A stretch of DNA of 64,000 nt, taken from assembly GCA_964501945.1 (NCBI GenBank), contig CAZCTY010000001.1:49187-113186 (forward strand), in the 5' to 3' direction. Under the pieces are notes generated by a model, which saw only the letters and a list, made by a program, of their open reading frames with translations, searched no databases and was not told the origin of the DNA. Numbering within the stretch: the first letter of the stretch is position 1; every line of letters begins with the position of its first letter. This document shows positions 7,557 through 55,549 of this stretch, piece after piece. Source of the stretch: an uncultured Methanosarcinales archaeon. GTDB taxonomy: Archaea; Nanobdellota; Nanobdellia; Woesearchaeales; 21-14-0-10-32-9. The position numbers and the translations under genes were made by a program.

Positions 7557-7718
7557 ATGAAAAAGCAACTAAACATAAGACTTAGCGAAGAAATACGCAC
7601 CCAAGCTAAAATAACTGCTATTCTAAAAGGACTAACATTAAACGAGTACATAGAGAGAGCTATAAAAAAAGAACTCGAAAAAGATCAAAAAATAAACAAT
7701 TCAAAAAACAAAAAATGA
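7557..7718 (+). CDS. Small (53 aa) ribbon-helix-helix (CopG/Arc-like) DNA-binding protein
   Basis: MKKQLNIRLSEEIRTQAKITAILKGLTLNEYIERAIKKELEKD reads as a beta-strand followed by helix-turn-helix. Its TGA stop overlaps the ATG of the next gene (ATGA at 7715..7718). Confidence 0.5.
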   Translation: MKKQLNIRLSEEIRTQAKITAILKGLTLNEYIERAIKKELEKDQKINNSKNKK

Positions 7719-10444
7719 AAAAAAATAAACAAGACTGGATACTGAAAATAGGGATTTTCATAATTTTAACACTCATAACAATACAAACAACAAACGCACT
7801 AATAATAGAAACACCAGAATTAATAACAACACCAGAAGAGAAAATAGAATTTAAAATAAATATAAAAAACAACTCATCTAACGTAACAATAAAAACAGAA
7901 CCAGACATAGGAAAAATAACAAACCAAACACCTTTCACGTTCACATGGGACGTTAATTACGAGGATAAAACATACAAAGACATAATATTCATAGCAGAAG
8001 ATAACACAACAAAAACCAACTCAACAACAAGATTTGCAAAACCGCCAAAAATCACAGGACTTAATAACGACTCAATAGACAAAGAAACATACGAATTCAC
8101 ACTAAACACAGACATAGAAGCAACATGCAAATACGGATTAGAAAAAAAAGAACACAACGACCTAGAATACACAATGCAAACACAAGATAACAAAGCACAC
8201 AAAGGAACAACGCCAAAACTAAAACAAGACACACACACAATACACATAAACTGCAAAACAAACACAGGAGGAGAGAGTAAAGACTACTTCAAATTAGAAG
8301 TTAACCTGCCACCAACGGCGAGAATAAACCTCGAACCACCATCCCCACTAAGAGCAGGAATAATAGAAGTAGAAGTAATAACATCACAAGACCTAATAAC
8401 AGCGCCCGAACTTAGATATTTCTTCGACGACGATACATCTCCTAGAACAATAACCCTAACAGGCAGAGATAACAGGTGGACAGGACACATGATAATAGAG
8501 GAGACAACAAAAAGAAGAATAGGAACATTCACATTTAAAGGAAGAGACAAAACAAATATGGAGGGAGATGAAATAACCTCGGGAAAAACATTCATCGTAG
8601 ATAATAACAAACCAAAAACAATATCTAGCTTCACAGGAACAATGGAAGAAGATAGGATAAAATTAGAATGGAGATACTTAGATGAAGAGCTAGATGATAT
8701 AAAAGAATACAGAATATATAGACGAGAGAGAACTGGAGGCGTAGATTATACAGATTACTACCAAACAACACGAAACACATATTTTTACGATAGAGACGTA
8801 TCGCATAGCGAAGCATATTACTACAAAGTCACAGCGGTGAACCAAGCAGGAAGAGAGAGCGAACTCTCAAAAGAAATAGCACTAACATTCATCCCAGAAA
8901 CAAGAGAGGTGGAGGAGAGCGAAGAAGAACTAAAACCAATACTAAAAACACAACTAAATATAATAAAAAACCAAATAGATAACAAAATATTGAACTTAGA
9001 GACAACACAATCAAACCTTCAAAACAAGACAGACGAGAAAGCAGAAATAATACAAGATCTAAACTTACTACCAAAAATAATAACAGCCAAAAACAAATTA
9101 GAAAACATAAAAGAAGAACTAACAGACTTTGAGAAAAAATCACTGACAGAAACAGAATTTGAACAAATAACAAACCCACTAATTGAGGACGCAGAAAAAA
9201 TAGCTGAGGAAGCACTACAAGAAATAATAATAGAGGATGTAATAATATATGATGAAGAATTAAAAGAAGATATTGCTGAGAAGACCATAAAAAAATATCT
9301 TGAAACACAAAATATTAACCTAAGCCACAGAGATGCACAAAGATACATAGAGAACGCGATACAAGAACAAACACAATTCACAACAGAAGTAAAAATCATA
9401 AAAGCAAAAATAAAATATGCAAATAGAGAAGAGCCAATAACACATATAACAAAAAAAATAAAGAGTGATGAAAACCAACAAAACATAGTCTTACTAGATA
9501 ATATCAAATTAGATGAATTTGAAGAAATAAAATTCGTAGAATCTGTAACAAAAATAAAAGATGAAATAATAGCAAGACGATTAGATAATGCAGACGGAAA
9601 CAAAATAAGATATTACGCAACAGAGAACATAAGCGCAGATAACATACGTCAAACACAAACAATAATACTAAAAGAAGAAAAACTCGAGGAGACAAGAAAC
9701 CAAATAACAGCTATGGCAACAAAAGAGAGAGGAGATATAGAACACACACTCCTAATACCTCTAATTATAGCAATACTATCAGTACTAATACTATCAGTAT
9801 ACTACTTTAAAGACGATGAAACAACTATCATCGAGCTACTATCATTAAGAAACATAATACCAAAAAAAATATTTAAACAAAACCAACAACAAAGCAGAAA
9901 CCAAAAAATAGAACTAGAACAACCACCATCACTTGAAGAAACCAAAAACCTAGAACTAACTGAAAACGAAACAAAAACACTCACAAAATACACAACAAAA
10001 GAAGCTGATGCAAACAAGATACAAGAAACACAAAAAGAAGAACAAATAACAAAAACACAAGAACAACCAGAAGAACCAGAAGAACCAGAAGATGTATACA
10101 ACGTATTACACGATTTAAAAGACATGATGGAGGAGATATACTACGAAGATGACTTCGACGATTTTGAATATCTAAAAAAACTAAAACAAATAAGAAAAAA
10201 ATACAACAAAAAAGCGCCAGCAGGAAAAGAATTTATTTTAAAGACAGGAGAGAGAATAGACACAATAAATGAACTTAGACAGGCACTAAAAACAATGAGT
10301 AAAGAAACATTTAACCACCATGTAAACCAAGAAAAAAACGACTTCTACAAATGGATAAACGATGTATACAAATATAGGGGTCTTGCAAGAAGAATAAAAA
10401 GAGCAAAAACAAAAAAAGAAATAATAAAAAAACTAAAACCCTAA
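7715..10444 (+). CDS. Type I membrane surface protein: ectodomain with FN3-like module, TM helix, cytoplasmic E/K-rich region and C-terminal KNDF-W module
   Basis: The signal peptide ends in ITIQTTNALIIETP. An FN3-like segment is present (KEYRIYRRERTGGVDYTDYYQTTRNTYFYDRDVSHSEAYYYKVTAVNQAGRES). There is a coiled-coil region and a TM helix HTLLIPLIIAILSVLILSVYYF. The C-terminus reads ETFNHHVNQEKNDFYKWINDVYKYRGLARRIKRAKTKKEI. Confidence 0.7.
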   Translation: MKKNKQDWILKIGIFIILTLITIQTTNALIIETPELITTPEEKIEFKINIKNNSSNVTIKTEPDIGKITNQTPFTFTWDVNYEDKTYKDIIFIAEDNTTKTNSTTRFAKPPKITGLNNDSIDKETYEFTLNTDIEATCKYGLEKKEHNDLEYTMQTQDNKAHKGTTPKLKQDTHTIHINCKTNTGGESKDYFKLEVNLPPTARINLEPPSPLRAGIIEVEVITSQDLITAPELRYFFDDDTSPRTITLTGRDNRWTGHMIIEETTKRRIGTFTFKGRDKTNMEGDEITSGKTFIVDNNKPKTISSFTGTMEEDRIKLEWRYLDEELDDIKEYRIYRRERTGGVDYTDYYQTTRNTYFYDRDVSHSEAYYYKVTAVNQAGRESELSKEIALTFIPETREVEESEEELKPILKTQLNIIKNQIDNKILNLETTQSNLQNKTDEKAEIIQDLNLLPKIITAKNKLENIKEELTDFEKKSLTETEFEQITNPLIEDAEKIAEEALQEIIIEDVIIYDEELKEDIAEKTIKKYLETQNINLSHRDAQRYIENAIQEQTQFTTEVKIIKAKIKYANREEPITHITKKIKSDENQQNIVLLDNIKLDEFEEIKFVESVTKIKDEIIARRLDNADGNKIRYYATENISADNIRQTQTIILKEEKLEETRNQITAMATKERGDIEHTLLIPLIIAILSVLILSVYYFKDDETTIIELLSLRNIIPKKIFKQNQQQSRNQKIELEQPPSLEETKNLELTENETKTLTKYTTKEADANKIQETQKEEQITKTQEQPEEPEEPEDVYNVLHDLKDMMEEIYYEDDFDDFEYLKKLKQIRKKYNKKAPAGKEFILKTGERIDTINELRQALKTMSKETFNHHVNQEKNDFYKWINDVYKYRGLARRIKRAKTKKEIIKKLKP

Positions 10445-11340
10445 GCTGAAGGCGTAGCAGTAAATCTTAGAGTACCAGTACACTCTCCTTGAGGGTTAGG
10501 TGGAACATATAACTGCCAATAAACCTCCCAAATACTAGGAGCAGTCTCATCAGTTGCTTGAGGAATAGTAAAACCCATATCTTGATTAGATTCTGATAGA
10601 GGAGATTTATCTTCCCAATCAACAGAACTTGATGATGAAAACCTTTGATGCTCAACACCAATATCATCACCACGCTCACAAACCAAACCCAAACCATCAC
10701 CTTCTTCAACACCATAACCAAGAACACTAACATTAATATCCATGTTACCAATGTTAGCAATCAAAGCAGGAACATCCAAACTATAACTCATAACCGCCAC
10801 ATCACCATAATCAACAGTATCTGTAACGTTTAAAGCATACAACTCATTTATATCTGTGACATTTTCTAAAGAGCCGTTAAAACCCCAAGAGTCTTGAGCG
10901 CTTACATTACAAAACCACTCACCACTATTAGCATAATGAATAACATCAAAAGTACACGATGAATACGCTATGTATTCTCCATCATTATCATAAATCTCAC
11001 AACTACTATTAGTATAATGGACATTACCATCATCTTCCGCGCCGCTATGCGATGAGGAATGATAAAAAGTACCATTAACAGAAGTTATATCTTCCCAACC
11101 ATTCCAATCACGAATAGTAGCATTACAATAAACAGTCTTAAAATCACCCGCAACCAAAACAATGTCCTGATCAATATTAACTTCGAGCACCTCGGGGAGT
11201 GCGTTAGTAACATTTACACGAGTCACAGCTTCATCATATTCAAAATTTTGCTGCGCTGAAATAAAAGGCAAAAGAGCTAAAATAGATAAACATAGGACAA
11301 GACAAAACACCAATCCTTTGATTTTTAATCCATTCATCAT
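10441..11340 (-). CDS. Secreted protein, cassette family A (copy A1)
   Basis: The signal peptide ends in FISAQQ. It is a clear paralog of 52392..53267 (for example KTVYCNATIRDWNGWEDITSVNGTFY, HYTNSSCEIYDNDGEYIAYSSCTFDVIHYANSGEWFCNVSAQDSWGF, CTGTLRFTATPSA). Its C-terminal domain is also found in the 581-aa protein 22642..24387. Confidence 0.7.
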   Translation of the reverse strand: MMNGLKIKGLVFCLVLCLSILALLPFISAQQNFEYDEAVTRVNVTNALPEVLEVNIDQDIVLVAGDFKTVYCNATIRDWNGWEDITSVNGTFYHSSSHSGAEDDGNVHYTNSSCEIYDNDGEYIAYSSCTFDVIHYANSGEWFCNVSAQDSWGFNGSLENVTDINELYALNVTDTVDYGDVAVMSYSLDVPALIANIGNMDINVSVLGYGVEEGDGLGLVCERGDDIGVEHQRFSSSSSVDWEDKSPLSESNQDMGFTIPQATDETAPSIWEVYWQLYVPPNPQGECTGTLRFTATPSA

Positions 11341-11358
11341 AAAAACCTCATAAATACA

Positions 11359-12105
11359 TCAAGCACCTATTTCAGCATAAAAATAATACGTACTAGTACC
11401 AACAACCTGATCAGGCACAATACTCTGAAAATCAACTAAACTCCCAGTATTATAACTCTGCGTTCCTTTATTGATAGGAGTAGCATAAACCAAATCAGAA
11501 CCACTCGCAAGCAAAATCAAAGGAAAATCAGCATTGTTATGATCTTGAGGATTATTACTTACAAAAGTACTCGTACTCCTACAAGTATTCTCATCAATAT
11601 TAGTTAAACCTATAGATATCGTTGGATGAGTTTCCTCACTAAACGTTCTATTAACACTATCAGCAGAAGTAGAACTAAAACCTAAAGAGGAATCTTCATT
11701 TTCTATATCAATATCGGTAGGACAATCAATATCGGACCAATTAATAGAGTCACTACGACTAATAAAAACATTACCAGTCACATCCTCGTCCTCAAGCTCC
11801 CACCTAAAAATGGATTGACCTGACTCATCATCTAAAGTCAAAACACCTGTAAGGTTCCCCACGTATGCTTTCCACCTAGGGTTTTGCTGAACAACATCAA
11901 CTAAAATAGTATTAATGGTACCACCACTATCAGTTCTAGAGTCAGGAGAAACATCTGATCTACTCTCAGTCACACCGCTTTGAATTTCCAACCCTGTAGG
12001 CTGAGCCACGCTTATCTGAGCAGCTAATAAAAAAAACAAAAATACAGATAATAAGGAAAACAAAAATAACTTCAATTTTCCTTTACTTTTTTTGTTCGTT
12101 TCCAT
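11359..12105 (-). CDS. Secreted protein, cassette family B (copy B1); homologous to the C-terminal domain of the giant surface proteins
   Basis: The signal peptide ends in VAQP. Shared motifs are PRWKAYVGNLTG, IFRWELEDEDVTGNVFISRSDSINWSDIDCP and the C-terminal TYYFYAEI. It is a paralog of 53270..53980 and 55594..56349. Confidence 0.7.
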   Translation of the reverse strand: METNKKSKGKLKLFLFSLLSVFLFFLLAAQISVAQPTGLEIQSGVTESRSDVSPDSRTDSGGTINTILVDVVQQNPRWKAYVGNLTGVLTLDDESGQSIFRWELEDEDVTGNVFISRSDSINWSDIDCPTDIDIENEDSSLGFSSTSADSVNRTFSEETHPTISIGLTNIDENTCRSTSTFVSNNPQDHNNADFPLILLASGSDLVYATPINKGTQSYNTGSLVDFQSIVPDQVVGTSTYYFYAEIGA

Positions 12106-12154
12106 TTTTTTCTTCTCTATTTTTTATTTTTTATAAAAAAAACAAAAAAAGAAT

Positions 12155-12931
12155 TTAGTAAATCTCAACCCAAAAGTAATAAGGCGTTGTATCGCTATTT
12201 CCGAATTGGCCATTTTCAGCAACTAATAATTGAAAATCATAATCGCCACCATCATAACCATCTTTACCTTGCCTTGCACCTTCAGCCCTATCTTCTATTA
12301 TAGATGTAAAGATTAAAGCATCATTTTCATCAGTTAATAAAACAGCAGGAAAATCTCTTTCCGCCTCAGGATCTTCTTGCCTTTCACTATCAACAAAAGT
12401 ATAAGTAGTCCTACAACCATTAACAGTCGTAAAACCAACATAAAACTCAGGATGGCTAGTATAAGGATATGTTATGTTAATATTATCATAGTCTGTATCA
12501 AGCATCCCATAATAATCATACCACATACCTCTAAAAGTATCATCTTCTATATCTGCACAACCAACACTAGTCCAAGAAATAGTGTTATTTACAGACGCAT
12601 AAACTTGACCTTGAGGCTCAGCCGCAGACCAGTCATAAAACCTCATACCAGAAGAATCTTCTAATATGATTGTACCTGACACGTTCCCAAAGAAACCTTG
12701 CCAGCTCTTTGTCTGAGATACACCTGTGATGTTTAGCTCCGTTAAATTACCTGCTAGCGCAGGAACCATAGCTGCAGGGTACAGGCTCGTGTTAGAAGTT
12801 TCACTTCTTATAACAGTCGCGTTTTCAGCACCTAATGGCGCGTTAAACCCGTCGTTAGCAGAAACCAAACCTCCAAAAGCTATGATAAAAAGGCTTGCTA
12901 ACATTGCAATTTTAAACATTTTGACATTCAT
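12155..12931 (-). CDS. Secreted protein, cassette family C (copy C1); distant relative of family B
   Basis: The signal peptide ends in VSANDG. Shared motifs are SWQGFFGNVSG, FYDWSAAEPQGQVYASVNNTISWTSVGCADIEDD and the C-terminal TPYYFWVEIY. It is a paralog of 54009..54731. Confidence 0.7.
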   Translation of the reverse strand: MNVKMFKIAMLASLFIIAFGGLVSANDGFNAPLGAENATVIRSETSNTSLYPAAMVPALAGNLTELNITGVSQTKSWQGFFGNVSGTIILEDSSGMRFYDWSAAEPQGQVYASVNNTISWTSVGCADIEDDTFRGMWYDYYGMLDTDYDNINITYPYTSHPEFYVGFTTVNGCRTTYTFVDSERQEDPEAERDFPAVLLTDENDALIFTSIIEDRAEGARQGKDGYDGGDYDFQLLVAENGQFGNSDTTPYYFWVEIY

Positions 12932-13163: not shown

Positions 13164-14087
13164 TCAATAATTTTCTAATAAATTAAGTAATTCCTCTCTA
13201 CTATAAACGCTTCTAATCTTGCGAGCGAGCTTCTCCTCACCAAAAACATGAAGCACCCACTCAGCAAAATCATTTTTACCCTCAAAGACATGCTTTTTAA
13301 AAACATCATCAGACATACCACGCAACTCATGAACCAAATCATTTAAACAAAGCAACAACTTACCATCAGCGAGAACAAAAGCCTTATCATGAGACACGTT
13401 TTTATTAAATAACTTAAAACGATCAGCCTTCCTAATTAACGCCTTAAGCTCCTCAGAAACCCTACCGATCTCATCTTCTTTTTCAACCAAAAGCTCCTTT
13501 GCAGCATTAAACTCTCTCGCCCTAATCAACCATTCCTCTTCAATTTCTTTTAATTTAAGCATTTTTTTATACAAAACATCTTCCAAATCCTGCTCGTGAA
13601 AAAAGAAATGCTCCCCTCTTGAACGAGCAGAATGATAACGCTTCATCATATCAACCAAATCAGATGAAATGTGCTTATCACTATCAGACTCACCGAGCTT
13701 TTTCTCTAAAACCTCAAAGAAAGACGGAAGCTTCTTAGACGAGACTTCCTCGCCAACATTATTATCTTGACTAGGCGAATTCTGGATAGGTGATTCTTGA
13801 TGGCTTTGCTTAATTGCATCGTTGTTTGAAGTATCACTATCTTTATTTTCAGAGGAATGCTCTTTAAAAAATTCAACACTAGATGAATTATCAAGCTTAT
13901 CAACAAAAATTTTTTTATCAGCAAGATCTTTTGGAAGCTGCCTCGGATGAGCTTCCTTAGACGCGACAGAACTTGATTCTTGATTAGCCAAACCATAAGT
14001 ATCAATTAAAGAATCAGGAAGAGACTTAGGAGCATCCAAACTAACATCTTTTTCAGAATCCTCACTTTTTTTATCCAACAAACCCAA
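13164..14087 (-). CDS. Cytoplasmic protein with disordered S/D/K-rich N-terminal half, coiled coil and C-terminal KNDF-W module
   Basis: No signal peptide or TM helix. The C-terminus reads LLLCLNDLVHELRGMSDDVFKKHVFEGKNDFAEWVLHVFGEEKLARKIRSVYSREELLNLLENY. Confidence 0.6.
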   Translation of the reverse strand: MGLLDKKSEDSEKDVSLDAPKSLPDSLIDTYGLANQESSSVASKEAHPRQLPKDLADKKIFVDKLDNSSSVEFFKEHSSENKDSDTSNNDAIKQSHQESPIQNSPSQDNNVGEEVSSKKLPSFFEVLEKKLGESDSDKHISSDLVDMMKRYHSARSRGEHFFFHEQDLEDVLYKKMLKLKEIEEEWLIRAREFNAAKELLVEKEDEIGRVSEELKALIRKADRFKLFNKNVSHDKAFVLADGKLLLCLNDLVHELRGMSDDVFKKHVFEGKNDFAEWVLHVFGEEKLARKIRSVYSREELLNLLENY

Positions 14088-14210: not shown

Positions 14211-15179
14211 ATGACATACCACAAACTACTAAAAAAAGTTCCAAAAGACAAAGAATTGAAACTAATAAGAGGAGTTACAGCACAAAACTACGAAGAATTA
14301 CTCACACAACTAATAAAAATAAAAGATGAAGATTTCAAAAAAATAATCAAAAAAGAAAACAAAATAATCAAATGGATAAAAGAAAACTACAATGACGAAA
14401 CACTAATTAACGAATTAAAAAATAAGAAAACCAAAAAAGAATACATGAAAAAAATATATGAGAGAATAGAGACAATAAAAAAAGAATCACAGGACCTCTC
14501 AACACTAATCAACCAAAGACAAAAACTAATAAAAAAGAAAACAAGCATCATGCCAATAATCTGGCTAAGTATATACATAATTTTAATCATACTACTAATA
14601 ACACAACACACATACTACACAAAACAAACAGACTACCTAAAAAACCGCGTAATAGACGAACAAGAAATAACAAAAAAATTCTACGAAGACAATATAAGAC
14701 TTAGAGAAAAAGAAACAGAACTGAGAGATGAAATACAAAAATTAAACGAAACAATAACCGAAATAGAGGAACAAAACACAGACCTAATGCAACAAATACG
14801 CGCACTAAACCTTGGAAGAACACAAGGACCAAAACCAAGGATTACAGAAGAAAACATAACAATAATAGATGAAGGCGTTATAATAAACGTTGATAATCCC
14901 TTATTTGCAATGTTTGAAGACACAAAATCAATGATACCAACAATAAACACCGATACAAAAGCAATACAAATAAAACCAAAAAATCCAGAAGACATACAAA
15001 AAGGAGATATAATAAGCTATGAGACGGAAGAGAAAATAATAATACACAGAGTTATAGAAGTAAATCAAGACGAAGAAGGATGGTACGCTACAACAAAAGG
15101 AGATAACACAAGACAACCAGACAGAGAAAAAGTAAGATTTGAACAAATAAGACGAATACTCATAGCACTAATATACTAA
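14211..15179 (+). CDS. Type I signal peptidase (S26B/Sec11-like) with an unusual N-terminal cytoplasmic extension, TM helix and coiled coil
   Basis: The C-terminal domain carries SPase boxes: the nucleophile box KSMIPTI, KGDIISY, the His box IIIHRVIEV (archaeal/ER Ser-His type) and GDN in TKGDNTRQPD. The TM helix is MPIIWLSIYIILIILLIT. The N-terminal approximately 90 aa resemble the KNDF-W module (EELLTQLIKIKDEDFKKIIKKENKIIKWIKENYNDETLINEL). Confidence 0.6.
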   Translation: MTYHKLLKKVPKDKELKLIRGVTAQNYEELLTQLIKIKDEDFKKIIKKENKIIKWIKENYNDETLINELKNKKTKKEYMKKIYERIETIKKESQDLSTLINQRQKLIKKKTSIMPIIWLSIYIILIILLITQHTYYTKQTDYLKNRVIDEQEITKKFYEDNIRLREKETELRDEIQKLNETITEIEEQNTDLMQQIRALNLGRTQGPKPRITEENITIIDEGVIINVDNPLFAMFEDTKSMIPTINTDTKAIQIKPKNPEDIQKGDIISYETEEKIIIHRVIEVNQDEEGWYATTKGDNTRQPDREKVRFEQIRRILIALIY

Positions 15180-15190
15180 AAAAAACATAA

Positions 15191-18100
15191 TTAAATTATC
15201 TCAATGTAAAAAGCCAACTTCTCATTACTACCAGAATAAGTCCTAAGCGTAGCAGGCACCCTGACTTCAAAGTCATAAATACCGAAACGACCCTCGCTAC
15301 TAGGATTAATCTCAGTAACAAAAACAACAGTTTCTTTGTCTGCAGAGTCAAAACGCTCATTACCAGAATCATCACTAGTATCCCAAAGGATGCCAGTAAC
15401 AAAATCATCATACTCAGTACTCGCAACAACAGGAACATTATTAACAGGGCCACTTGGAAGATTAAAAGTACGAGTCTCAACAGGCACCTCAGAACCCGCG
15501 CCCCACGTATTCCTAATAGAATCACTAAGACCCGCCGTGCCCATAACATCATCTAACGCAGAAAAATCACCACTCACAAGGCCGCCATCAACGTTCCGAG
15601 TGAGCGCTTGCAAATCACCATAAGAAAAGGACGCATCAACATCAGAAAAGAAAACCAAACCTCCTCTACTAGAGAGATTACGATACTCAATGAACATAGA
15701 CAAATCATCCTTACCAAGAACAATATCAGAACTAGAACTACCAAAATAATACTGATAAAGCTCAACATACAAAGAATTATTAGCAACATTGTTATCAACA
15801 GTAGTTTCATTAACAACGTCCTCAGGATCAACCACCACAAAAACATTATTAGAACCAAAAGACAAATCAAAATCAGCACCAACACTTACAACATCCAAAC
15901 TACCAAGCCCAGGAACTAAAGACGAGCTAATAAACTCCCCTCCCTCAACAGGATTACCAAGATAAAAAGAAACATTAAATGACTCCTCAGCATCACTAAG
16001 ACCCTCATTAGAAACATTAGCAAAAACACTAACCTCAACACCCTCAATTAACTCATCATAATCAAACCAAATATCATCATCACGAACAACCAAGTCAGGC
16101 GCAGAAATATTCAACAAGAAGTTCTCATCCGCAAAACCAACATTATCATAAGAATCAACACACTCAACGTTCCACTCATGAATACCAATATCAACAAGAA
16201 CACCCTCAAAAGTATTAGTTTCATTACTCACAACGTTAACATCAGTAACAACTTCCTCCAAGACACCACCATTACTACCCAAAAACAAAGTACAGTTATC
16301 CAAATTAAAATCATAAGGACGATAACTAAAATCAAACAAGCCCCTACCAGCCTCAAAACCATCCTCAGGATTAATAAGTGAAACATTAGGAGGAGTCACA
16401 TCAGGTGCAACCTCAAAAGTTGTAAAACTAGTCGCATCATCATAAGATTCAGCAGACGCTAAAACAACAGACGAATACAAACCTAAATCAACCCCTTGAG
16501 TATTCCACGAAAAAGAATCACAACCACAACTACCACTAGTCTCACCACTAAAAGAATCAACAAGAACTTCTTCACCAGAGACAAGAACCTCATCAACATC
16601 AGAATCTTTGATGTAAGTAACATTTAACTCAACCCAATACAAATACATAGTAATAGTAGCAGCCCCGCCACTCTTTACAACTTCTCCCTGAAGCCTAGTC
16701 CTATTAAGCTCAGACCAAGAAAGAGAAGAATAAGACTCAGTGATATCAAACCACTGCGAAGTCGTCTTACCAATAGTACCAGAAAAACGATTTAACTCAG
16801 TATAACTAGCACCATCATCAACACTATAATGAAAAATCCTATTACTGGCGCCTCCGCTCTCAGGCACCTCATACCTAAATCTGGCCTCAACTCTTTCAAT
16901 ATCCCCAAAAGTTTCATCAATAAAATCACGCCCATGAAGCAAAACATAACGATCACCACCACCGCTAGCCTCAATTACCGCGAAAGAATCATCATCCTTA
17001 CCAAGAATACTATCCAAATCAGAAAAAGAACCCCCTTCTTCATCATCAATATCACGATCATTAGCATTAAATAAAGCACTCTCAACCAAATCAAGCTCAA
17101 CAGAAGGACCGCCGGCGTTAGGATTATCATAATAAACATAATAAGAATCATAATTAACAATGTTAGCGTCAAGATTAACAGCGAAAGATACAAAACAAGA
17201 ATCAAGCGTTTCCCCATGAACAGTAAACAAAGACTCAACAGGATCTAAAGACTCATGATTAACAAACCTTAATTCATCACAACTCTCAACGCTACCCTCA
17301 AGACCGGTAATATTAACACTAGCCACGCCATCAACTAACTCAACACCAGAAGTTTCATTCATAACAATATTTCTTCTTCTACCCCAATCAGAATCCCACC
17401 AAGGAACACCAGTTTCACCACTAATAATGAACGCATCAAAAAAAGTATTAAGAGGACTTAAAAAAGCATCAGTACTATTAACCAAAATAGACGCAGGCGT
17501 GCCCACCTCCCATGAAGCCTCAGTCGAGACTTCAATGTTAATAGTATCATCATCAACACCAGTAAAAAAACGAGTCTCACTAACACCAGTATTATCAAAT
17601 ACATCAGTACACTCAACCCTCCAAGAATAATCATCCTCAACAACGCTTAGAGAAAAAAACTGAGAGGTGAACCTAGCAACATCCTCATCAACCTGATTTA
17701 ATTCACCATTAACATACAAAGAACAACTCTCAATAGGAGATGAATCATTAACATTATAATTTAAACTCCGCGTCCCAGTAGAAATTAAAGAATTATTACC
17801 AGGACTCTCAAGCAAAACAACAGGAGGAGACACATCTAAAACATTAACAGAATAAGTAATATTATCATAAAAATAATTATCAGTCTCATTGAAAACCAAA
17901 GAAACATTATAAGAACCAGGATCCTCAAATAATAAATCTTCCTCAACAAAACCATTACCAGAAGATATTAAATCATTATTCAAATACAATTCTAAATAAC
18001 CCTCATCAGGAATAGCAACGTCTCCTGCGATGCTTACAACTTCATTTTCATCAATAACCAAATCATCCTCAACACCATTTAAAGAAAGACTAAACACTGG

Positions 18101-21100
18101 CAAAGACTTATTAACAAAATAAGAAAAAGAAGACGTCTCATTAAAATTACCAGAAGAATCATTAGCAAACCAAGAATAACTATAAAGACCAGCATCCAAA
18201 TCCTCAACTGAAAAACTATAAACACCATTAACTAAAAATAATTCTTTTTCAACAAATTCACCAGAGAAATTATGCTGAAGTAAAACAGTATCAACCCCAA
18301 AATTATCCTCCCAAGAAATATTAAAATAATAAACCCTCTCAGCATAACTAACAGGAGACTGCGGGCTAACAACGATGTCGCTATATTCAGGAGCCTCAGT
18401 ATCAACACTCAAAGAAAAATTCTCAGAGGCAAAACTCACCCTAGAACTTTTATCAACACATAAAACATTCCAAGAAAAAGAACCACTAGGAACACTAACA
18501 CTAAAAACGTTTTGTGAACCACTAACAGGACTTGAATCACTCGCGGTTTCCTCAAAAGAACCACTAACATTACTATACAAAAAACACTCATCAAGATTTT
18601 CATCAAAAGGAGTGTACACAAAATTCACATCATCAAAATTTAAAAAAGCACCATCCTCAGGAATGTTCAAATCAACCACGGGGTCAGTCAAATCAACAGT
18701 GAAAAACTCAACACTCGAAAAACCAATATTATTCTCAGAACTATTATCAACGCAAGAAACACTCCAATTATACAAACCCTCAGAAAAATCACTAAGAGAA
18801 AAAGTATTAACCTCAAAATTATCAACACTAAAACTTTGAGCATCTAACTCATCATCAACAAACAAAGAACAACTCTCAATGCCAGTCGCATCCTCAACTA
18901 AGTATTCAAATAAAATACTAGATGAATTCAAAAATTCATCACTCTCAGGATTTAAAAGAGAAATAACAGGAGGATCAGTATCCAAAGATTCAACAGTTAA
19001 AAAACGAGAATCACTAACCTCAAAGTTACCAAGAGAATCAAAACAACGAACGTTCCACTCATAATAATTATTAGATAAAAAAGTAGACATATTAAAAGGA
19101 ACCTCATCAACAATATCGCTCTTAGTTTCTCTAACAGAACCATTAACTAATAATTCACAATAATCAATACCAGAAACATCACAACACGCACCCGCAGAGA
19201 AAGTTACAACGTTAGTATCATCAATCAAAGCACCATCATCAGGACTGAACAAAGAAATATCAGGGCCGGATTGATCAATAATAAAAGACCACGCATCAGA
19301 AATACCATCATTACCAGCCTCATCAAAACAATGAACCTCCCACTCAAAAGTATTTTCAAACAACTCACGCTCAAAAGAATTAACAACACCTTCAATAGGA
19401 GAAGAATCCACATCAACAACTTCTAAGACGCCAGACTCATTTGTATGCAACTCACAATGACTAAGCGTGTTTTCCTCACTTGGAATATATGAAAAAGAAA
19501 CCAAAGAATCACTAGTTAAAAAATTATCAACAGGAGCTTCCAAACTAACAACAGGAGCAGTCCTATCAGTTATGTACTTGAAAACACTACTAGACTCAAC
19601 AGAATTACCAAATACATCATACGCAATAACCTTCCAATAATAAATGCGGTTAGCATCCAACGCGAAATCTAAAGAATACTCACTTTGAGAAATACTACTA
19701 GATGAGTAAACAAAATCAGGACTGCTAAGAGAAGGATTATCAGCAATGATTAAAGTGTAATTATCAAAATCAGGAGTCACAGTCTCCTCCCAAGACATAG
19801 TCGGATTTAACTCACGAGACTCCGTAGCATTAAGAGGATTTAACAAATCAAATTCGGTGGGAGGCACAACTTCAACCTCGAACCACAAATCAACACTTTT
19901 CTCACTGCTCTGACCAAGAGTATCGTTCGCCCAAATATTAGTTATGTTGTAAATGCCCTCATCTAAAGTATCTGTGAAAACAAAAAAGAATTCATCACCA
20001 TCTCTTTCTAACTCATGCTCAACAACAGAAGAATCAGGATACATCGCGGTTATAGAAGCAATATCAACACCGAAACTATCAGTTATACTAACACTAAAAC
20101 GAACAGACCTGTTCTGTCTTATGATTGTTTCATTAAGTGCTTCATTTTCAATTAACGGAGGCTGAGCGTTAATAAAAACAGTCCTATTATCATCAGCGAA
20201 AGCAAATCTTTCATCCTCGTTCTCACACCTAACGTTCCACTCATAAACACCATCACTAGGACTAAGACTAAAACTAGTAAGCGTATCAGTATCTACATCA
20301 CTGAGAGTAGCAGAAATATCCCATGAACCAGTAATATTAGTATAAAGATCACAAGTTAAAGTAGAATAAGTCTCATCACTAGCACTAAATGAAAAGTCTA
20401 CTGGGGTGTTAGAAACAATCTCATTATCACCAGGCGCACTCAAAGAAACCTCTGGCGGAGGCGTACCAGTATCAACTTCCAAGTAAGCCGCATAAACAAC
20501 GGCATCAGTAGGCCTACCACCACTCGCTCTTTCAACATGTCCAAAATGAACACTCAAATCATCAAGAGAACCAGAAGGATCACTCCAAGTACAACTAGAC
20601 CAAGAAGTAGAACTACCTCCTGGAACGAGATTACTACAAACAGTAGTTCCGCCTTGCCTTAAAGAATAAGTAAACTCAGCAGTATTACCAGTATTAGAAT
20701 ATACCCACAAAGTAATCTCCTCAACACCTGTCTCAACAACACTAGAAAAACCAAACTCAGACTCTTCCTCATCACCCATCCCACTTGCTATGCTGGTAGC
20801 GGTACTAGGCGCACTGGGCTGACGAGTACCTTTGCTGATTTGCGTGTAAGAAGTACCAGAACCAGAACTCCACTCAGTAGTTATATCGCTTGTAGGATCA
20901 TAATACGTAATAGGATCAATAGCCAAGTACCAAGGACGAGCCTCTTCAAATAATTTAACCTCACTTTCTTTCTCATAATCAATGAAACTTTGAAAAGCCC
21001 AAAGATACGGAATAATAAAAGGAGAATTAAAACTATATGAGGCAGAAAAATCACCATTTAAATTACTCCAAGTCAAATAAATATTATCAGCATCACGCGT

Positions 21101-22641: not shown

Positions 22642-24387
22642 TTAACCATTAACCGAAAACACAATCATCCCCTCACAATCAGCTACCTCAGACGGAGGCG
22701 CCAGCAATTCCCAAAAAGTACTCTGACTAACCAACTCAGAGGAAGATTGCTTCTCCAAATCTTCAAATATAATACTAAAATCAGAGGACAAAACACTTTT
22801 AGATTCAAAAGGAACACCTTCCACAGTTGAAAAACGACTATTACCAACAGGAATATCAACATCATTATCACAAAACAAAGCAAACCCAGAACCCTCAAGA
22901 GGATCACTACCACCATAACCCCTAACAAAAACACTCACAGGCATATTACCCACATTAAAAACATCCAAAGAAACCTCCTCAGAAACATCACCAGCAGGAA
23001 TTTCGCCATAATCAAGATTAAAACTAGACAAATTAATAGCATAAAGCTCATCAACAAAACTCAAATTAAAACCAGAACCACTAAGACCTTGAGCATCAAA
23101 CGAGGTAACATTACAAACCCAAGAACCATTACTCGCATAATGCAACAAATCAAAAGAACAACTAAACTCACCAATATCCCCAAAAGTACTAACTAAATCA
23201 CACTCATCATAATAAACAATTTTATCATCAAGAGAAAAATCACCAATACCTTCTAAATGAAAAAAAGCCTCAACACTAGAAATATCACCCGCGCCATTGC
23301 CGTCTTCAACCAACACATCACATGTAACCTCTTTAGTAGAACCAGGATTGAGATTTACAACATCAGGAACACTAACACTTACAACTTGAGGAGGATGAAC
23401 CTCAACGAATAAATCAAAAATAGAAGATGAACCAGTCAAAAAAGGATTATCACACTCAACAAACCAAGTATAAAAACCATTACTAAGATTAACCACGAAC
23501 TCTTGCACAACACCAGAACTAACATCAAAAACAGTTTTATTTAAAGAATCATTAATAAACAAACGACACTCATCAATACTAGAATAATCCTCAACCAAAT
23601 AAGAGAAAACAATTTCATTATCAGCCATCTCAACACTCTCATTTTCAGGATCAATTAAAGTAACATTCGGAGGAGTGTCAGGAATAACCTCAACATCAAA
23701 TACTGTATCTTTATTATTACCCTCAAACACTACATCATCACTCTCACAAAAAACAGAAACCTCCAAATCAGATGAACCAAAACCAAAACTCTCCAACTCA
23801 AAGACAACATCCACGATTTCAGATTCAGGAATTAAAGTTACAAAAAGAGAATCACTCCCTTTAACATCCATAGAATCAGTATTACTAATAAAAAGCTCAA
23901 CATCACAATTCTCAGAATCACTAACAAGGGATGAGAGCTCAACAGAGACATTAAAATCAGAATAAGAACTAACCTCAAAATTATCAACAGGCTCAGATAT
24001 ATTAACAACGACTTCAGGAGGCCTAACAATATCTAAAGAAACATTAATTTCCTCAGAGGAACCACTCAAAACCCTAAACGTCTCACCATAAAAAGAATCA
24101 TTAAACGCACGAACAAGAACCTCATCACCAGAACTCGCAGTTATAGCAAGAGAATAAAAACCCTCAAAACCAGGAACACTCGGCGCAGAAACCTCAGTGA
24201 AAAAAACCTCGCCAGTATAAGTATTATTAACAATAACAGGCACACCATCAGGCGCCCCAACGCCATTATCTAAAAACACAAAACCATCAATATTAAAAGG
24301 AACAATTGGCTGAGTTGAAACAAAAACAGAGAAACAAATAATGAGACTAAACAAAACAACAAAACCCCTCAAAATTTTAAAAATCAT
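22642..24387 (-). CDS. Secreted 581-aa surface protein; its C-terminal domain is shared with cassette family A
   Basis: The signal peptide ends in FVSTQP. An internal W-x-V-x-C module is present (YTWFVECDNPF). The C-terminal part (FSCSFDLLHYASNGSWVCNVTSFDAQG...CEGMIVFSVNG) aligns with A1/A2 (SSCTFDVIHYANSGEWFCNVSAQDSWGF...CTGTLRFTATPSA). The start overlaps the upstream gene by 4 nt. Confidence 0.7.
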   Translation of the reverse strand: MIFKILRGFVVLFSLIICFSVFVSTQPIVPFNIDGFVFLDNGVGAPDGVPVIVNNTYTGEVFFTEVSAPSVPGFEGFYSLAITASSGDEVLVRAFNDSFYGETFRVLSGSSEEINVSLDIVRPPEVVVNISEPVDNFEVSSYSDFNVSVELSSLVSDSENCDVELFISNTDSMDVKGSDSLFVTLIPESEIVDVVFELESFGFGSSDLEVSVFCESDDVVFEGNNKDTVFDVEVIPDTPPNVTLIDPENESVEMADNEIVFSYLVEDYSSIDECRLFINDSLNKTVFDVSSGVVQEFVVNLSNGFYTWFVECDNPFLTGSSSIFDLFVEVHPPQVVSVSVPDVVNLNPGSTKEVTCDVLVEDGNGAGDISSVEAFFHLEGIGDFSLDDKIVYYDECDLVSTFGDIGEFSCSFDLLHYASNGSWVCNVTSFDAQGLSGSGFNLSFVDELYAINLSSFNLDYGEIPAGDVSEEVSLDVFNVGNMPVSVFVRGYGGSDPLEGSGFALFCDNDVDIPVGNSRFSTVEGVPFESKSVLSSDFSIIFEDLEKQSSSELVSQSTFWELLAPPSEVADCEGMIVFSVNG

Positions 24388-53267: not shown

Positions 53268-53269
53268 AA

Positions 53270-53980: not shown

Positions 53981-54008
53981 TTTAATTCATTCCCTCCTAT
54001 GTATTGTC

Positions 54009-55322: not shown

Positions 55323-55515
55323 TTTTGCTCTTTTTTCTCTCCTAAACAAACACAAAAATGCGTCTTTTAAGCCACGTATATACAAAATCGTTGCTTGTGG
55401 CTTTTAGTATACATTTTTGTATTCTGATTTAATCAATGTGATAGCTCATATTTAAATGTTTCGTTTTTTACAATAAAATTTAATTTGTAGAAGTTGAAAA
55501 TAAACAAAAATAAAG

Positions 55516-55549
55516 TTATTACACTAATTAAGTTATTTATGAATTAGTT
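55516..55549. repeat. Left copy of a perfect 34-bp inverted repeat (ttattacactaattaagttatttatgaattagtt)
   Basis: It is the exact reverse complement of 57045..57078. The pair was found by direct comparison of the two intergenic regions. Confidence 0.75.

What the first reader, a model, noticed from the sequence alone, without database searches (positions are those of the whole stretch)
10441..12931. Duplicated three-gene secreted-protein cassette A-B-C (second copy at 52392..54731, solo B at 55594..56349); B/C proteins are homologous to the C-terminal domain of the giant proteins
A1/A2, B1/B2/B3 and C1/C2 are clear paralog pairs kept in the same order and orientation. The B and C families share a PRWKAYVGN / WQGFFGN motif, a W-rich central strand and a terminal YYF-x-E-I strand. 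The last 200 aa of the 2469-aa and 2468-aa proteins follow the same pattern (ILWD..DFE-RVPATLR..FY-EI). The family A C-terminal domain recurs in the 581-aa protein. This points to a shared assembly or anchoring domain used both in free small subunits and in the giant proteins.
Basis: seen in the sequence. Interest (0 to 1): 0.75.

Follow-up and report, generated by a model that had tools for sequence, protein, structure and literature searches.

The report
Shared docking domain of archaeal surface proteins
A tiny symbiotic-type archaeon (Woesearchaeota) encodes an undescribed ~190-residue extracellular domain three ways, as small secreted proteins, as the tail of giant adhesin-like proteins and as the outer part of a membrane ATPase, which suggests a common plug that holds a cell-surface apparatus together.

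Summary

**Paralogs.**
- A1/A2 are 64% identical.
- B1/B2/B3 are 40-50% identical.
- C1/C2 are 40% identical.
- B and C form one family (E 1e-23 to 1e-43).

**Shared domain.** The C-terminal ~190 aa of the two 2.47-kaa giants is homologous to B/C. Profile-profile probability is 97.4% (E 1e-11; score 82.6 against 13.9±2.4 for column shuffles). Nearly all of mature A recurs as the C-terminus of the 581-aa protein (E 3e-55).

**New here.**
- The same B/C fold is the membrane-proximal ectodomain of a 1377-aa HerA/FtsK-type ATPase (97.7%, E 1e-12). It is conserved in three other genomes.
- The two cassettes are ancient, separately conserved modules across about 70 Woesearchaeota loci, not a recent duplication.
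- An archaeal signal peptidase I fusion lies in the cluster.
- The family has about 1,300 clusters at 50% identity. It has no Pfam or NCBIfam model, no solved-structure relative and no description in the literature searched.
- In long proteins the domain always sits at the extreme C-terminus.

**Most likely function (inferred).** The domain is a protein-protein docking module. It would tether giant adhesins that lack a membrane anchor to a scaffold of free A/B/C subunits held by membrane proteins. This has not been tested.

The parts
10441..11340 (-). A1, a secreted protein of two Ig-like domains (299 aa). Last gene of the giant-adjacent cassette (module 3).
   Evidence: 64% identical to A2. 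A-family HMM E 1e-134. The A2 model has pLDDT 92.4 and two beta-sandwiches. K 1.3%, pI 4.05, 8 Cys.
11359..12105 (-). B1, a stand-alone B/C-fold protein (248 aa) with the PRWKAYVGN motif.
   Evidence: B/C HMM E 9e-101. 50% identical to B2 and 40% to B3.
12155..12931 (-). C1, a stand-alone B/C-fold protein (258 aa) with the WQGFFGN motif. It has its own BRE/TATA-like element about 85 nt upstream.
   Evidence: B/C HMM E 1e-65. In other genomes, C proteins downstream of a P307-like gene are C1-type in 14 of 18 cases. The promoter element is my own reading of the sequence.
13164..14087 (-). P307, a Lys-rich cytoplasmic protein with a C-terminal DUF5752-like domain. It is the conserved gene between the giant and the C1-type cassette.
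   Evidence: The order 'G - d - C - B' recurs in many loci. Domain repeats are seen, and the Pfam DUF5752 match is weak. K 11.4% and no hydrophobic segment.
14211..15179 (+). P322, a fusion of a DUF5752-like N-terminus, a TM helix, a coiled coil and an archaeal-type signal peptidase I (SipW-like).
   Evidence: TIGR02228 scores 60.3 bits against a cutoff of 51.85 (E 1.9e-16). The SipW model gives E 3.7e-12. TM at aa 110-135. Homologues sit next to cassettes in L020, L023, L037 and L049.
15191..22600 (-). G2469, a giant Ig-repeat surface protein (2469 aa) with a signal peptide and no other anchor.
   Evidence: Pfam Big_7, CARDB, Big_3_3 and Big_13. Only one hydrophobic segment, at the N-terminus.
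15194..15745 (-). The C-terminal B/C-like domain of G2469 (about aa 2286-2469).
   Evidence: Giant-C-terminus HMM E 2.3e-76. 32% identical to the G2468 C-terminus over 411 aa. The direct match to the B/C profile covers only the last 43 aa.
22654..23391 (-). The A-module forming the C-terminus (aa 333-578) of the 581-aa secreted protein (gene 22642-24387).
   Evidence: A-family HMM E 3e-55. hhalign 99.9%. BLASTP E 1e-36.
31871..32431 (-). The C-terminal B/C-like domain (about aa 2282-2468) of giant G2468 (gene 31868-39274).
   Evidence: hhalign 94%, E 1.2e-7. B/C HMM E 8.5e-7. Profile-profile 97.4%, E 1.4e-11, with a shuffle control.
41326..45459 (-). P1377, a two-TM membrane protein. Its ectodomain holds a B/C-like domain, CarboxypepD_reg and Ig-like domains. 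Its cytoplasmic part holds a HerA/FtsK-type ATPase, coiled coils and two DUF5752-like domains.
   Evidence: Pfam DUF87 E 1.6e-10, 41.9 bits against a cutoff of 23.2, plus CarboxypepD_reg and DUF5752. PDB HerA chains at E 1e-6. TMs at about aa 39-65 and 610-635. Ectodomain K 2.2% against 13.2% in the cytoplasmic part.
44677..45255 (-). The B/C-like ectodomain of P1377 (about aa 69-261), starting a few residues after TM1.
   Evidence: hhalign 95%, E 2.5e-8. A four-genome profile gives 97.7%, E 1.3e-12, score 90.1 against 14.6±3.0 for shuffles. B/C HMM hits on the homologues in L018, L019 and L034.
51030..52250 (-). P406, with a signal peptide, CARDB-like Ig domains, a C-terminal TM helix and a poly-Lys tail. 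It is the conserved last gene of module 1 and a candidate membrane anchor.
   Evidence: The order A followed by M occurs in 11 loci. TMs. The CARDB match is weak.
52392..53267 (-). A2 (291 aa), module 1.
53270..53980 (-). B2 (236 aa), module 1.
   Evidence: 164 homologues, all about 240 aa and annotated as hypothetical. AF2 pLDDT 83.
54009..54731 (-). C2 (240 aa from the TTG start; public gene calls use a 234-aa start), module 1.
   Evidence: B/C HMM E 8e-73. C proteins next to an ArsR-type HTH gene are C2-type in 48 of 49 cases.
54750..55385 (-). P211, an ArsR-type HTH protein and the conserved first gene of module 1.
   Evidence: Pfam HTH_5 E 9e-7. The order hA-C-B-A recurs in about 50 loci.
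55594..56349 (-). B3 (251 aa), the solo B of module 2.
   Evidence: B/C HMM E 1e-95. B proteins next to a sigma-70-region-4-like HTH gene are B3-type in 45 of 45 cases.
56342..56845 (-). P167, a sigma-70-region-4-like HTH protein whose gene overlaps the B3 start by 8 nt. It is the conserved partner of solo B.
   Evidence: Pfam Sigma70_r4_2 E 4e-8. The hS-B pair occurs in 46 loci.
7715..10444 (+). P909, with a signal peptide, an FN3-like ectodomain, a TM helix and a cytoplasmic DUF5752-like tail. It converges on A1 and is a conserved neighbour of module 3.
   Evidence: The order 'C B A d-(~1050-1110 aa)' occurs in L016, L018-L020, L022, L023 and L033. Domain.

Best explanation
The window comes from a Woesearchaeota (DPANN) archaeon. 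It carries a lineage-specific cell-surface gene system built around two previously undescribed extracellular modules.

**The B/C module.** This is a domain of about 190 aa, predicted to be a beta-sandwich with helical inserts and one conserved Cys pair, ending exactly at the protein C-terminus. It occurs in three forms.
1. Five stand-alone Sec-exported proteins (B1-3, C1-2). These are encoded in three conserved modules, each headed by a small cytoplasmic gene. The heads are an ArsR-type HTH protein, a sigma-70-region-4-like HTH protein and a DUF5752-like protein.
2. The extreme C-terminus of two 2.47-kaa Ig-repeat proteins that have no membrane anchor.
3. The membrane-proximal ectodomain of a two-TM HerA/FtsK-type ATPase.

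**The A module.** This is two Ig-like domains. It occurs free (A1, A2) and as the C-terminus of a 581-aa secreted protein.

**Most likely mechanism (inferred, not shown).** The B/C fold is a protein-protein docking and assembly module. Free B and C, together with A, would associate through it into an extracellular scaffold. That scaffold would be held to the membrane by proteins carrying the same or partner domains, namely the P1377 ectodomain and the TM-anchored P406. The giant adhesin-like proteins would plug in through their C-terminal copy and so be displayed on the cell. The clustered signal peptidase I fusion (P322) would process the exported subunits. The recurring cytoplasmic DUF5752-like domains may link the membrane components on the inside.

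**Shown:** homology, architectures, conserved synteny, predicted topology, and the absence of any known family.

**Inferred:** physical association, anchoring, and any role of ATP hydrolysis.
For: - **One family for B and C.** BLASTP E-values run from 1e-23 to 1e-43.
- **Giant C-termini are homologous to B/C.**
  - Reciprocal HMM hits confirm it.
  - A shuffle control rules out composition.
- **ATPase ectodomain is homologous to B/C.**
  - It matches the B/C profile.
  - The domain is also present in three other genomes.
  - A four-genome profile gives 97.7% probability.
- **Position of the domain.**
  - In 1,342 representative clusters it is either the whole protein (about 240 aa) or the extreme C-terminus of proteins of 468-2359 aa.
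  - 23 giants in related loci show the same placement.
- **The giants need an anchor.** G2468, G2469 and the 581-aa protein have only an N-terminal hydrophobic segment.
- **Extracellular location.** Lys-depleted, acidic composition marks all these parts as extracellular, while neighbouring cytoplasmic parts have 11-19% Lys.
- **Conserved synteny across about 70 loci.**
  - The recurring orders are giant-d-C-B-(A), hS-B and hA-C-B-A-M.
  - The true ATPase homologues are adjacent in L018, L019, L034, L071, L073 and L077.
- **Ancient modules.** Paralogs group by module context across genomes: C 77/77, B 100/110, A 43/50.
- **Signal peptidase in the cluster.** P322 scores above the curated cutoff for archaeal signal peptidase I.
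- **Autoprotease in other family members.**
  - Some long members carry a Nup98-type S59 autopeptidase with an HFS motif upstream of an Ig domain and the B/C domain.
  - In other systems, the fragment downstream of such an autoprotease is the part that stays tethered to the cell.
Against: - No experiment or multimer prediction shows that B/C-fold domains bind each other.
- Residues 24-53 of B2 are disordered in the model even though they contain invariant P26 and G28. The role of this N-terminal extension is unexplained.
- The third giant (1903 aa) lacks the domain and any anchor. The domain therefore cannot be the only way such proteins are retained.
- Conserved Trp, Tyr, Asn, Gln and His residues would suit a glycan-binding site equally well.
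- Nothing links ATP hydrolysis on the cytoplasmic side to the ectodomain.
- The giant C-terminal fold was not predicted.
Confidence: 0.5

Rival explanations
1. The system is a donor-strand pilus or fibre. B and C would be fibre subunits that polymerise head-to-tail by donating their conserved, disordered N-terminal extension (A|QPxGxx[IV]xxNxT) to the next subunit. The giants would be tip adhesins, with an N-terminal binding region and a C-terminal pilin-like domain as in FimH and PapG. The SipW-like peptidase would process the subunits, as in the TasA system.
For: - A conserved N-terminal extension follows the signal-peptide cleavage site. It has invariant P26 and G28, a short beta-prone segment and an N-x-T sequon, yet it is disordered in the monomer model.
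- The domain always ends at the protein C-terminus with a conserved terminal strand.
- There are several paralogous 'major/minor' subunits per genome.
- A SipW-type signal peptidase lies in the cluster.
- Chaperone-free donor-strand fibres are known in archaea: threads (PMC9715654) and cannulae (bioRxiv 10.1101/2024.12.30.630787).
Against: - There is no Pfam or NCBIfam match to camelysin/TasA or to a SipW-cognate signal peptide.
- In long proteins the extension motif is internal, so a free N-terminus is not required.
- Both the giant-type and the ATPase-type domains lack the extension. Two 'acceptor-only' ends are hard to fit into one polar fibre.
- No multimer modelling was possible.
Confidence: 0.2
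2. The B/C fold is a lectin-like or ligand-binding module rather than a homotypic docking domain. It would bind a glycan or protein of the archaeon's own envelope or of a host cell. Free B/C proteins, the giants and the ATPase ectodomain would then all recognise the same ligand.
For: - The fold is a beta-sandwich with invariant aromatic and polar residues typical of carbohydrate-binding sites (W68, W92, N74, H150, F214, Q215, Y228).
- DPANN archaea depend on contact with a host (general knowledge; PMC11329633).
Against: - Several invariant B/C residues, such as H150, are not kept in the giant-type or ATPase-type copies. That is unexpected for a shared ligand site.
- A domain pressed against the organism's own membrane right after TM1 of the ATPase is badly placed to bind a host ligand.
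Confidence: 0.12
3. The C-terminal domain is a sorting or secretion signal, comparable to the T9SS C-terminal domain. The HerA/FtsK-type ATPase machinery would recognise it and export or attach the cargo.
For: - The domain is strictly at the extreme C-terminus in otherwise unrelated long proteins: Ig-repeat, beta-helix, DUF2341 and others.
- The ATPase gene neighbours the cassettes in several genomes.
Against: - All carriers have ordinary N-terminal Sec-type signal peptides, and archaea have a single membrane, so no second export step is needed.
- Most family members consist of the domain alone, with no cargo.
- The ATPase's own copy lies outside the cell while the motor lies inside. The motor therefore cannot meet a C-terminal signal before export.
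Confidence: 0.07
4. There is no common assembly. A, B and C are simply an expanded family of independent secreted proteins, for example S-layer-like or nutrient-binding proteins. Domain shuffling placed copies on other proteins without any functional coupling.
For: - All function is inferred.
- Lineage-specific hypothetical families carrying signal peptides are common in archaea (PMC9258230).
Against: - Gene order is strongly conserved across divergent genomes, with GC from 28 to 62%.
- Orthology follows the module, not the genome.
- The domain-bearing giant and ATPase genes are repeatedly adjacent to the cassettes.
Confidence: 0.1

Closest known systems
Chaperone-usher pili of Gram-negative bacteria (FimH/PapG adhesins with FimA/PapA pilins)
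   Same: - Small free subunits occur alongside larger adhesins whose extreme C-terminal domain is homologous to the free subunit.
- Several paralogous subunits are encoded in one cluster.
- The C-terminal strand and end are conserved.
- There is an N-terminal extension on the free subunits.
   Different: - There is no sequence or fold match.
- There is no PapD-like chaperone or usher. A has two Ig-like domains, but its structural neighbours are generic and no chaperone appears among the top 60.
- The organism is a single-membrane archaeon.
- A HerA-type ATPase carries the domain.
- Donor-strand exchange has not been shown.
TasA/TapA/SipW biofilm fibres of Bacillus, and the archaeal bundling pili (AbpA), threads and cannulae
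   Same: - Sec-exported beta-rich subunits of about 200-260 aa.
- A SipW-type signal peptidase I encoded with them.
- These fibres are known to assemble without a chaperone in archaea (PMC9715654; 10.1101/2024.12.30.630787).
   Different: - No Peptidase_M73/TasA or SipW-cognate signal model matches.
- None of those systems has giant proteins or an ATPase carrying the subunit fold.
Modular surface-display systems: cohesin-dockerin, SLH-domain anchoring, and SlaA/SlaB S-layers
   Same: - The logic is the same: one small module, reused on many large extracellular proteins, attaches them to a cell-bound scaffold.
- A membrane-anchored partner (P406, P1377) corresponds to the stalk or anchor.
   Different: - The folds and sequences are unrelated.
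- Here the module also exists as abundant stand-alone paralogs.
- Binding partners are unknown, and no lattice or complex has been observed.
Type IX secretion C-terminal domains (CTD)
   Same: A beta-sandwich domain at the extreme C-terminus of very large adhesins and of smaller proteins.
   Different: - The T9SS CTD is a cleaved outer-membrane sorting signal in Bacteroidota.
- Here there is no outer membrane.
- Most members are the domain alone.
- There is no sequence match.
HerA/FtsK-superfamily membrane ATPases (CedB/CedD of the crenarchaeal DNA-import system, VirB4/TraD of conjugation)
   Same: - P1377 has a DUF87/HerA P-loop domain behind TM helices.
- It has weak P-loop-only matches to CedD and TraD models.
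   Different: - Scores are far below the family cutoffs (for example CedD 28 bits against 600).
- No Ced, Ted or T4SS partners are seen.
- P1377 has a 545-aa ectodomain that starts with the B/C fold. I found this architecture in none of the matched HerA/FtsK-type models or solved chains; from memory it is not known for those ATPases.

Membership tests
TasA / camelysin (Peptidase_M73) fibres with SipW-cognate signal peptides | Sequence match to the Peptidase_M73/TasA family or to the SipW-cognate signal-peptide model | tested here: not met
   No Pfam or NCBIfam hit at E ≤ 1 for any of A, B or C.
TasA / camelysin (Peptidase_M73) fibres with SipW-cognate signal peptides | TasA-like jelly-roll fold | tested here: not met
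TasA / camelysin (Peptidase_M73) fibres with SipW-cognate signal peptides | A dedicated SipW-type signal peptidase in the locus | tested here: met
   The P322 C-terminus scores 60.3 bits on TIGR02228 against a cutoff of 51.85. The SipW model gives E 3.7e-12.
Chaperone-usher pilins | A PapD-like chaperone and an usher encoded with the subunits | tested here: not met
Chaperone-usher pilins | An incomplete Ig fold completed by a neighbour's N-terminal strand | not testable with these tools
   Only monomer prediction was available. The N-terminal extension is disordered in the model.
Archaeal donor-strand fibres (threads, cannulae, bundling pili) | Structural similarity to Saci_0406, CanA or AbpA subunits | tested here: not met
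Type IV pilins / archaellins | A class III (prepilin) signal peptide cleaved before the hydrophobic helix, with the N-terminal helix retained | tested here: not met
   The N-termini are ordinary Sec-type signal peptides: an n-region, a hydrophobic stretch, then A-x-A and the mature QPxG. This is my reading of the 52-sequence alignment. No predictor was run.
HerA/FtsK-superfamily ATPases (for P1377) | A DUF87/HerA central P-loop domain scoring above the curated threshold | tested here: met
   PF01935 scores 41.9 bits against a cutoff of 23.2 (E 1.6e-10). PDB HerA chains match at E 1e-6 to 5e-4.
Ced / conjugative coupling ATPases (CedD, TraD) | A full-length match above the NCBIfam cutoff | tested here: not met
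   CedD scores 28 bits against 600 and TraD 25 against 366. Only the P-loop region matches, about 55 aa.
Archaeal signal peptidase I (for P322) | TIGR02228 above its cutoff, with the Ser and His catalytic motifs | tested here: met
   60.3 bits against 51.85. The SMIPT, HRV and GDN motifs are visible in the sequence (my own reading).
S-layer proteins | Formation of a two-dimensional lattice, or a match to a known S-layer family | not testable with these tools
   No S-layer Pfam or NCBIfam match. Lattice formation can only be shown by experiment.
New 'B/C-fold' family as defined here | A domain of about 190 aa with (R)W(K/Q)(A/G)(Y/F)xGN near its start, a conserved Cys pair, DSIN.TF, DF(Q/E).(I/V).P, and (Y/F)Y..E(I/L) at the protein C-terminus | tested here: met
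   - B1-3 and C1-2 score E 1e-65 to 1e-101.
- P1377 scores 3e-9 and G2468 8.5e-7.
- G2469 joins through the giant-type profile.
- The Cys pair and H150 are specific to the stand-alone type.

The most novel reading that the evidence does not exclude
The cluster encodes a DPANN-specific trans-envelope machine. A hexameric membrane HerA/FtsK-type pump (P1377) would present a ring of B/C-fold ectodomains. Secreted B and C subunits, with A, would stack on that ring into a tube or fibre tipped or decorated by the giant adhesins. ATP hydrolysis would drive DNA, protein or other macromolecules through this structure between the Woesearchaeote and its host. That would be an attachment and transfer organelle with no homologue among known secretion, conjugation or pilus systems.
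Probability: 0.12. Interest if true: 0.9.

Novelty: new variant of a known kind. Interest (0 to 1): 0.62.

Why it matters
How DPANN archaea such as Woesearchaeota attach to and exploit their hosts is largely unknown, and no Woesearchaeote is in culture.

This finding defines a widespread protein domain, with about 1,300 clusters at 50% identity. The domain is conserved within the lineage and has no Pfam or NCBIfam model, no solved-structure relative and no description in the literature searched. It ties three things into one conserved gene neighbourhood: small secreted subunits, anchorless giant adhesin-like proteins and a membrane HerA/FtsK-type ATPase.

That yields concrete, testable candidates for the cell-surface apparatus of these organisms. 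It gives an annotation handle for hundreds of 'hypothetical proteins'. It also shows an architecture I found in none of the HerA/FtsK-type models or solved structures matched here: a pumping ATPase whose ectodomain shares a fold with secreted partners. If the docking model holds, the system would be an archaeal counterpart of bacterial modular surface-display or pilus-adhesin systems, built from an unrelated fold.

Tried and rejected
- **Protein-family searches.** Pfam and NCBIfam on A, B, C and the 581-aa protein gave nothing meaningful.
- **PDB sequence searches.** Profile searches with the B/C and A alignments found nothing.
- **Specific families rejected.** TasA, thread, cannula and type IV pilin identities were rejected on sequence, fold or signal-peptide grounds.
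- **Compositional artefact.** This was rejected by column-shuffle controls.
- **Recent tandem duplication.** This was rejected by context-specific orthology. However, A and B of modules 1 and 3 are somewhat more alike within a genome (0.50-0.52) than between genomes (0.41-0.43). Some gene conversion is therefore possible.
- **Other copies in the window.** A search for cryptic B/C or A domains in P406, P595, P995, P909 and the 1903-aa giant found none at ≥50% probability.
- **S59 autopeptidase.** I looked for the 'HFS' motif seen in other family members. It is absent from the window's proteins.
- **Inverted repeat.** I tested whether the repeat flanking the P167-B3 module is general. It is absent from 39 other loci.
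- **Literature.** Searches for DUF5752, Woesearchaeota giant or surface proteins, and DPANN filaments found no description of this family.
- **RNA genes.** There are no tRNA or Rfam matches in the window.
- **Not run.**
  - A structure prediction of a giant C-terminal fragment.
  - Any multimer prediction.

Full report
**1. What is in the window**

The window has about 34% GC, and its closest relatives are Woesearchaeota/Nanoarchaeia MAGs. All seven ORFs named in the finding exist on the minus strand at the stated coordinates. Each has one N-terminal hydrophobic segment.

In a 52-sequence alignment of the B/C family, that segment ends in a conserved A-x-A context followed by [QDEA]-P-x-G. The mature parts are strongly acidic (pI about 4) and contain only 1-3% Lys. 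Neighbouring cytoplasmic proteins have 11-19% Lys. Together these features support the view that A, B and C are exported. No dedicated signal-peptide predictor was available.

**2. Check of the paralogy**

An all-against-all BLASTP of the window's proteins gave these results.
- A1/A2: 64% identity, E 1e-133.
- B1/B2/B3: 40-50% identity, E 1e-48 to 1e-77.
- C1/C2: 40% identity, E 2.5e-50.
- B versus C: 27-35% over the full length, E 2e-23 to 9e-43. B and C are therefore one family with two motif variants, PRWKAYVGN and WQGF(F/Y)GN.

An HMM of the A family hits the 581-aa protein at aa 333-578 with E 3e-55, and hhalign gives 99.9%. Because the A2 model consists of two Ig-like sandwiches spanning residues 42-289, the recurring part is essentially the whole mature A protein.

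**3. Check of the link to the giants**

- The B/C profile aligns to the last 190 aa of the 2468-aa protein with 94% probability (E 1.2e-7, 157 columns).
- A search with that fragment found five further C-terminal fragments.
- A profile of seven giant C-termini aligns to the B/C profile at 97.4% (E 1.4e-11).
- As a control I permuted the alignment columns 60 times. The real score is 82.6, against 13.9±2.4 (maximum 20.1) for the permutations and 18.3 for the reversed profile. The similarity is therefore not compositional.
- In the reciprocal direction, the giant-C-terminus HMM scores both giants at E 1e-76 to 1e-86, then C2, B2, B3 and C1 at 1e-7 to 7e-5. In related loci it recovers 23 giants and then more than 100 stand-alone B/C proteins.

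Two caveats apply. The 2469-aa protein matches the B/C profile directly only over its last 43 residues. The 1903-aa giant is a shortened paralog of G2469 (45% identity over about 1,600 aa) and has a different C-terminus.

**4. A third carrier of the domain**

BLASTP and the HMM also hit the 1377-aa protein encoded at 41326-45459. Its layout is as follows.
- A cytoplasmic N-terminus, then TM1 at about aa 39-65.
- A Lys-poor ectodomain of 545 aa, then TM2 at about aa 610-635.
- A Lys-rich cytoplasmic part containing a HerA/DUF87 P-loop domain, which scores above the Pfam cutoff, plus two DUF5752-like domains.

The B/C-like domain starts a few residues after TM1. hhalign gives 95% probability (E 2.5e-8, 174 columns). 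Homologues in three other genomes (L018, L019, L034) carry it too. A four-sequence profile reaches 97.7% (E 1.3e-12), with a score of 90.1 against 14.6±3.0 for shuffles.

**5. Distribution and architectures**

B2 has 164 word-indexed homologues. All are about 240 aa, annotated as hypothetical, and lack any Pfam domain. A full HMMER pass over 1.84 billion representatives finds 1,342 clusters at E ≤ 1e-3 and 967 at E ≤ 1e-10.

Among the best 150 hits, most are stand-alone proteins. About a dozen are proteins of 468-2359 aa that carry a complete domain, always ending at the last residue.

Their N-terminal parts vary and include beta-helix, Big_7, DUF2341 and 3-keto-disaccharide hydrolase domains. 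Several share a module made of a Nup98-type S59 autopeptidase with an HFS motif, an Ig domain and a C-type B/C domain. The window's own proteins have no HFS motif.

**6. Conserved synteny**

A scan of one genome per species found 296 coding matches, of which 72 loci were kept. Most records are titled Woesearchaeota, Nanoarchaeota or Nanoarchaeia. About 20 are titled Methanosarcinales or Saccharibacteria; I did not verify those labels, but the loci show the same gene order.

Labelling ORFs by their best window homologue shows three recurring modules.
1. ArsR-type HTH, then C, B, A, and often a P406-like TM-anchored protein.
2. A sigma-70-region-4-like HTH, then a solo B.
3. A giant with the C-terminal domain, then a P307-like DUF5752 protein, then C, B and sometimes A. 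A P909-like membrane protein often converges on this module.

In many genomes all three modules are contiguous. True P1377-type ATPase homologues lie adjacent in six loci.

The paralogs sort by module rather than by genome. The nearest neighbour in another locus has the same module context for 77/77 C, 100/110 B and 43/50 A proteins. The window's two cassettes are therefore ancient, separately maintained modules, not a recent duplication. A and B of modules 1 and 3 are slightly more similar within a genome, which suggests some gene conversion.

**7. Structure**

Neither protein matches any solved structure by sequence.

**8. Other cluster components**

- **P322.** This ORF is divergently oriented between G2469 and P307. 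It carries an archaeal-type signal peptidase I domain that scores above the curated cutoff (TIGR02228, 60.3 bits against 51.85) and also matches the SipW model at E 3.7e-12. The domain follows a DUF5752-like N-terminus, a TM helix and a coiled coil.
- **The DUF5752-like domain.** This ~80-aa domain recurs in P307, P330, P909, P322 and twice in P1377. It always lies on the predicted cytoplasmic side. Its profile weakly hits PDB 4cso, 'OrfY, transcription factor' (E 7e-4).

**9. Interpretation**

Shown:
- a new extracellular domain family;
- its three architectures;
- a second reusable module, A;
- conserved co-location with the giants, a membrane ATPase, a signal peptidase and small putative regulators.

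Inferred: the B/C fold is a docking or assembly module that tethers the giants to a scaffold held by membrane proteins. The reasons are these.
1. The giants have no anchor of their own.
2. The domain is always C-terminal.
3. It sits at the membrane surface on P1377.
4. It lies downstream of an autoprotease in other members.

Whether the scaffold is a fibre built by donor-strand exchange, a lattice or a ring on a hexameric ATPase cannot be decided here. A lectin-type role and a sorting-signal role are less likely but are not excluded.

**10. Comparison with known systems**

The logic resembles three known kinds of system:
- chaperone-usher adhesins, which pair a receptor-binding region with a C-terminal pilin domain;
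- TasA/SipW fibres;
- modular display systems such as cohesin-dockerin, SLH domains and SlaA/SlaB.

Every membership test that could be run failed, except for the HerA-superfamily ATPase and the signal peptidase. Searches of the held literature found no description of the family or the cluster.

**11. Verdict**

The finding is confirmed and extended. It is an undescribed, lineage-wide surface system whose parts are well defined and whose mechanism remains inferred. I score interest at 0.62. Novelty is 'new variant of a known kind': a modular surface assembly built from an unrelated fold, with an unusual fusion to an ATPase.

Noticed in passing
window 55501-55576 and 57018-57095 (repeat finder reports the arms as 55507-55593 and 57001-57087): An inverted repeat of about 79-87 nt (86% identity, blastn E 1e-18) exactly brackets the P167-B3 module and its promoter region. 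39 other loci with this module lack such a repeat, but the module's orientation relative to its neighbours differs among genomes. This could be an invertible segment or the scar of an inversion. No recombinase gene was seen nearby.
   Followed up: partly
window 56844-56966: Three direct repeats with the core ACATAATAAG(T/C)ATT lie just upstream of the P167 start codon. They are a candidate operator for one of the HTH proteins.
   Followed up: no
window 14211-15179 (+): An archaeal-type signal peptidase I (SipW-like, above the TIGR02228 cutoff) is fused to an N-terminal DUF5752-like cytoplasmic domain, a TM helix and a coiled coil. The Pfam scan returned no signal-peptidase family for it at E ≤ 0.1.
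   Followed up: yes
window P307 aa 222-307, P330 aa 1-85, P909 aa 824-909, P1377 aa 1050-1140 and 1292-1377, P322 aa 1-88: A domain of about 80 aa (K..F.L..G..L....EL....F..HV...KNDFA.WV) recurs six times, always in predicted cytoplasmic parts of cluster proteins. It matches Pfam DUF5752 weakly and PDB 4cso (OrfY, 'transcription factor') at E 7e-4. It may be a cytoplasmic hub or a regulatory domain.
   Followed up: partly
whole window, for example P1377 ectodomain against its cytoplasmic part: Composition is sharply two-sided. Exported proteins and ectodomains have 1-2% Lys and pI about 4, while cytoplasmic proteins and tails have 11-19% Lys. This also explains the strand-independent positive AT skew. 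The closest relatives carry isolate names beginning 'CSSed' or 'CSBr'. From memory these are soda-lake samples, which would fit alkaliphile-style Lys depletion. I did not check this.
   Followed up: partly
proteins P0204, P0240, P0245 and P0225 (other genomes): A recurring C-terminal tri-module consists of a Nup98-type S59 autopeptidase with an intact HFS cleavage motif, an Ig-like domain and a C-type B/C domain. It sits behind varied N-terminal regions, including a 1,200-aa beta-helix. This suggests autoproteolytically split surface proteins. The motif is absent from the window's proteins.
   Followed up: partly
protein P0124 (Logan contig, 195 aa): The N-terminal ~55 aa resemble the coiled-coil segment of the P1377 ATPase (VKIYxEGL..R.KK.WDK.G). 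They are joined directly to a giant-type C-terminal domain (my reading by eye). This may be a chimeric assembly or a real recombinant.
   Followed up: no
window 26155-31866 (-): The 1903-aa giant is a shortened paralog of G2469 (45% identity over about 1,600 aa). It lacks G2469's N-terminal ~560 aa and its C-terminal CARDB and B/C domains. It has an unrelated C-terminus of about 275 aa and no anchor.
   Followed up: partly
window ~13005-13020, ~55450-55465 and ~56870-56885: BRE/TATA-like elements (AAAGATTTATATAT, AACATTTAAATAT and AACATTTATAAATA on the minus strand) lie upstream of C1, P211 and P167. The three modules therefore probably have separate promoters. This is my reading.
   Followed up: no
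window 54009-54731 and 54750-55385: The longest ORFs of C2 (240 aa) and P211 (211 aa) start at TTG. Public gene calls on identical contigs use later starts, giving 234 aa and 190 aa.
   Followed up: no
loci L015, L017, L019-L021, L023, L024, L034 and others: About 20 related loci come from records titled 'uncultured Methanosarcinales archaeon' or 'Saccharibacteria', yet they have the same Woesearchaeota-type gene order. The taxon labels are probably wrong. GC among related loci ranges from 28 to 62%.
   Followed up: partly
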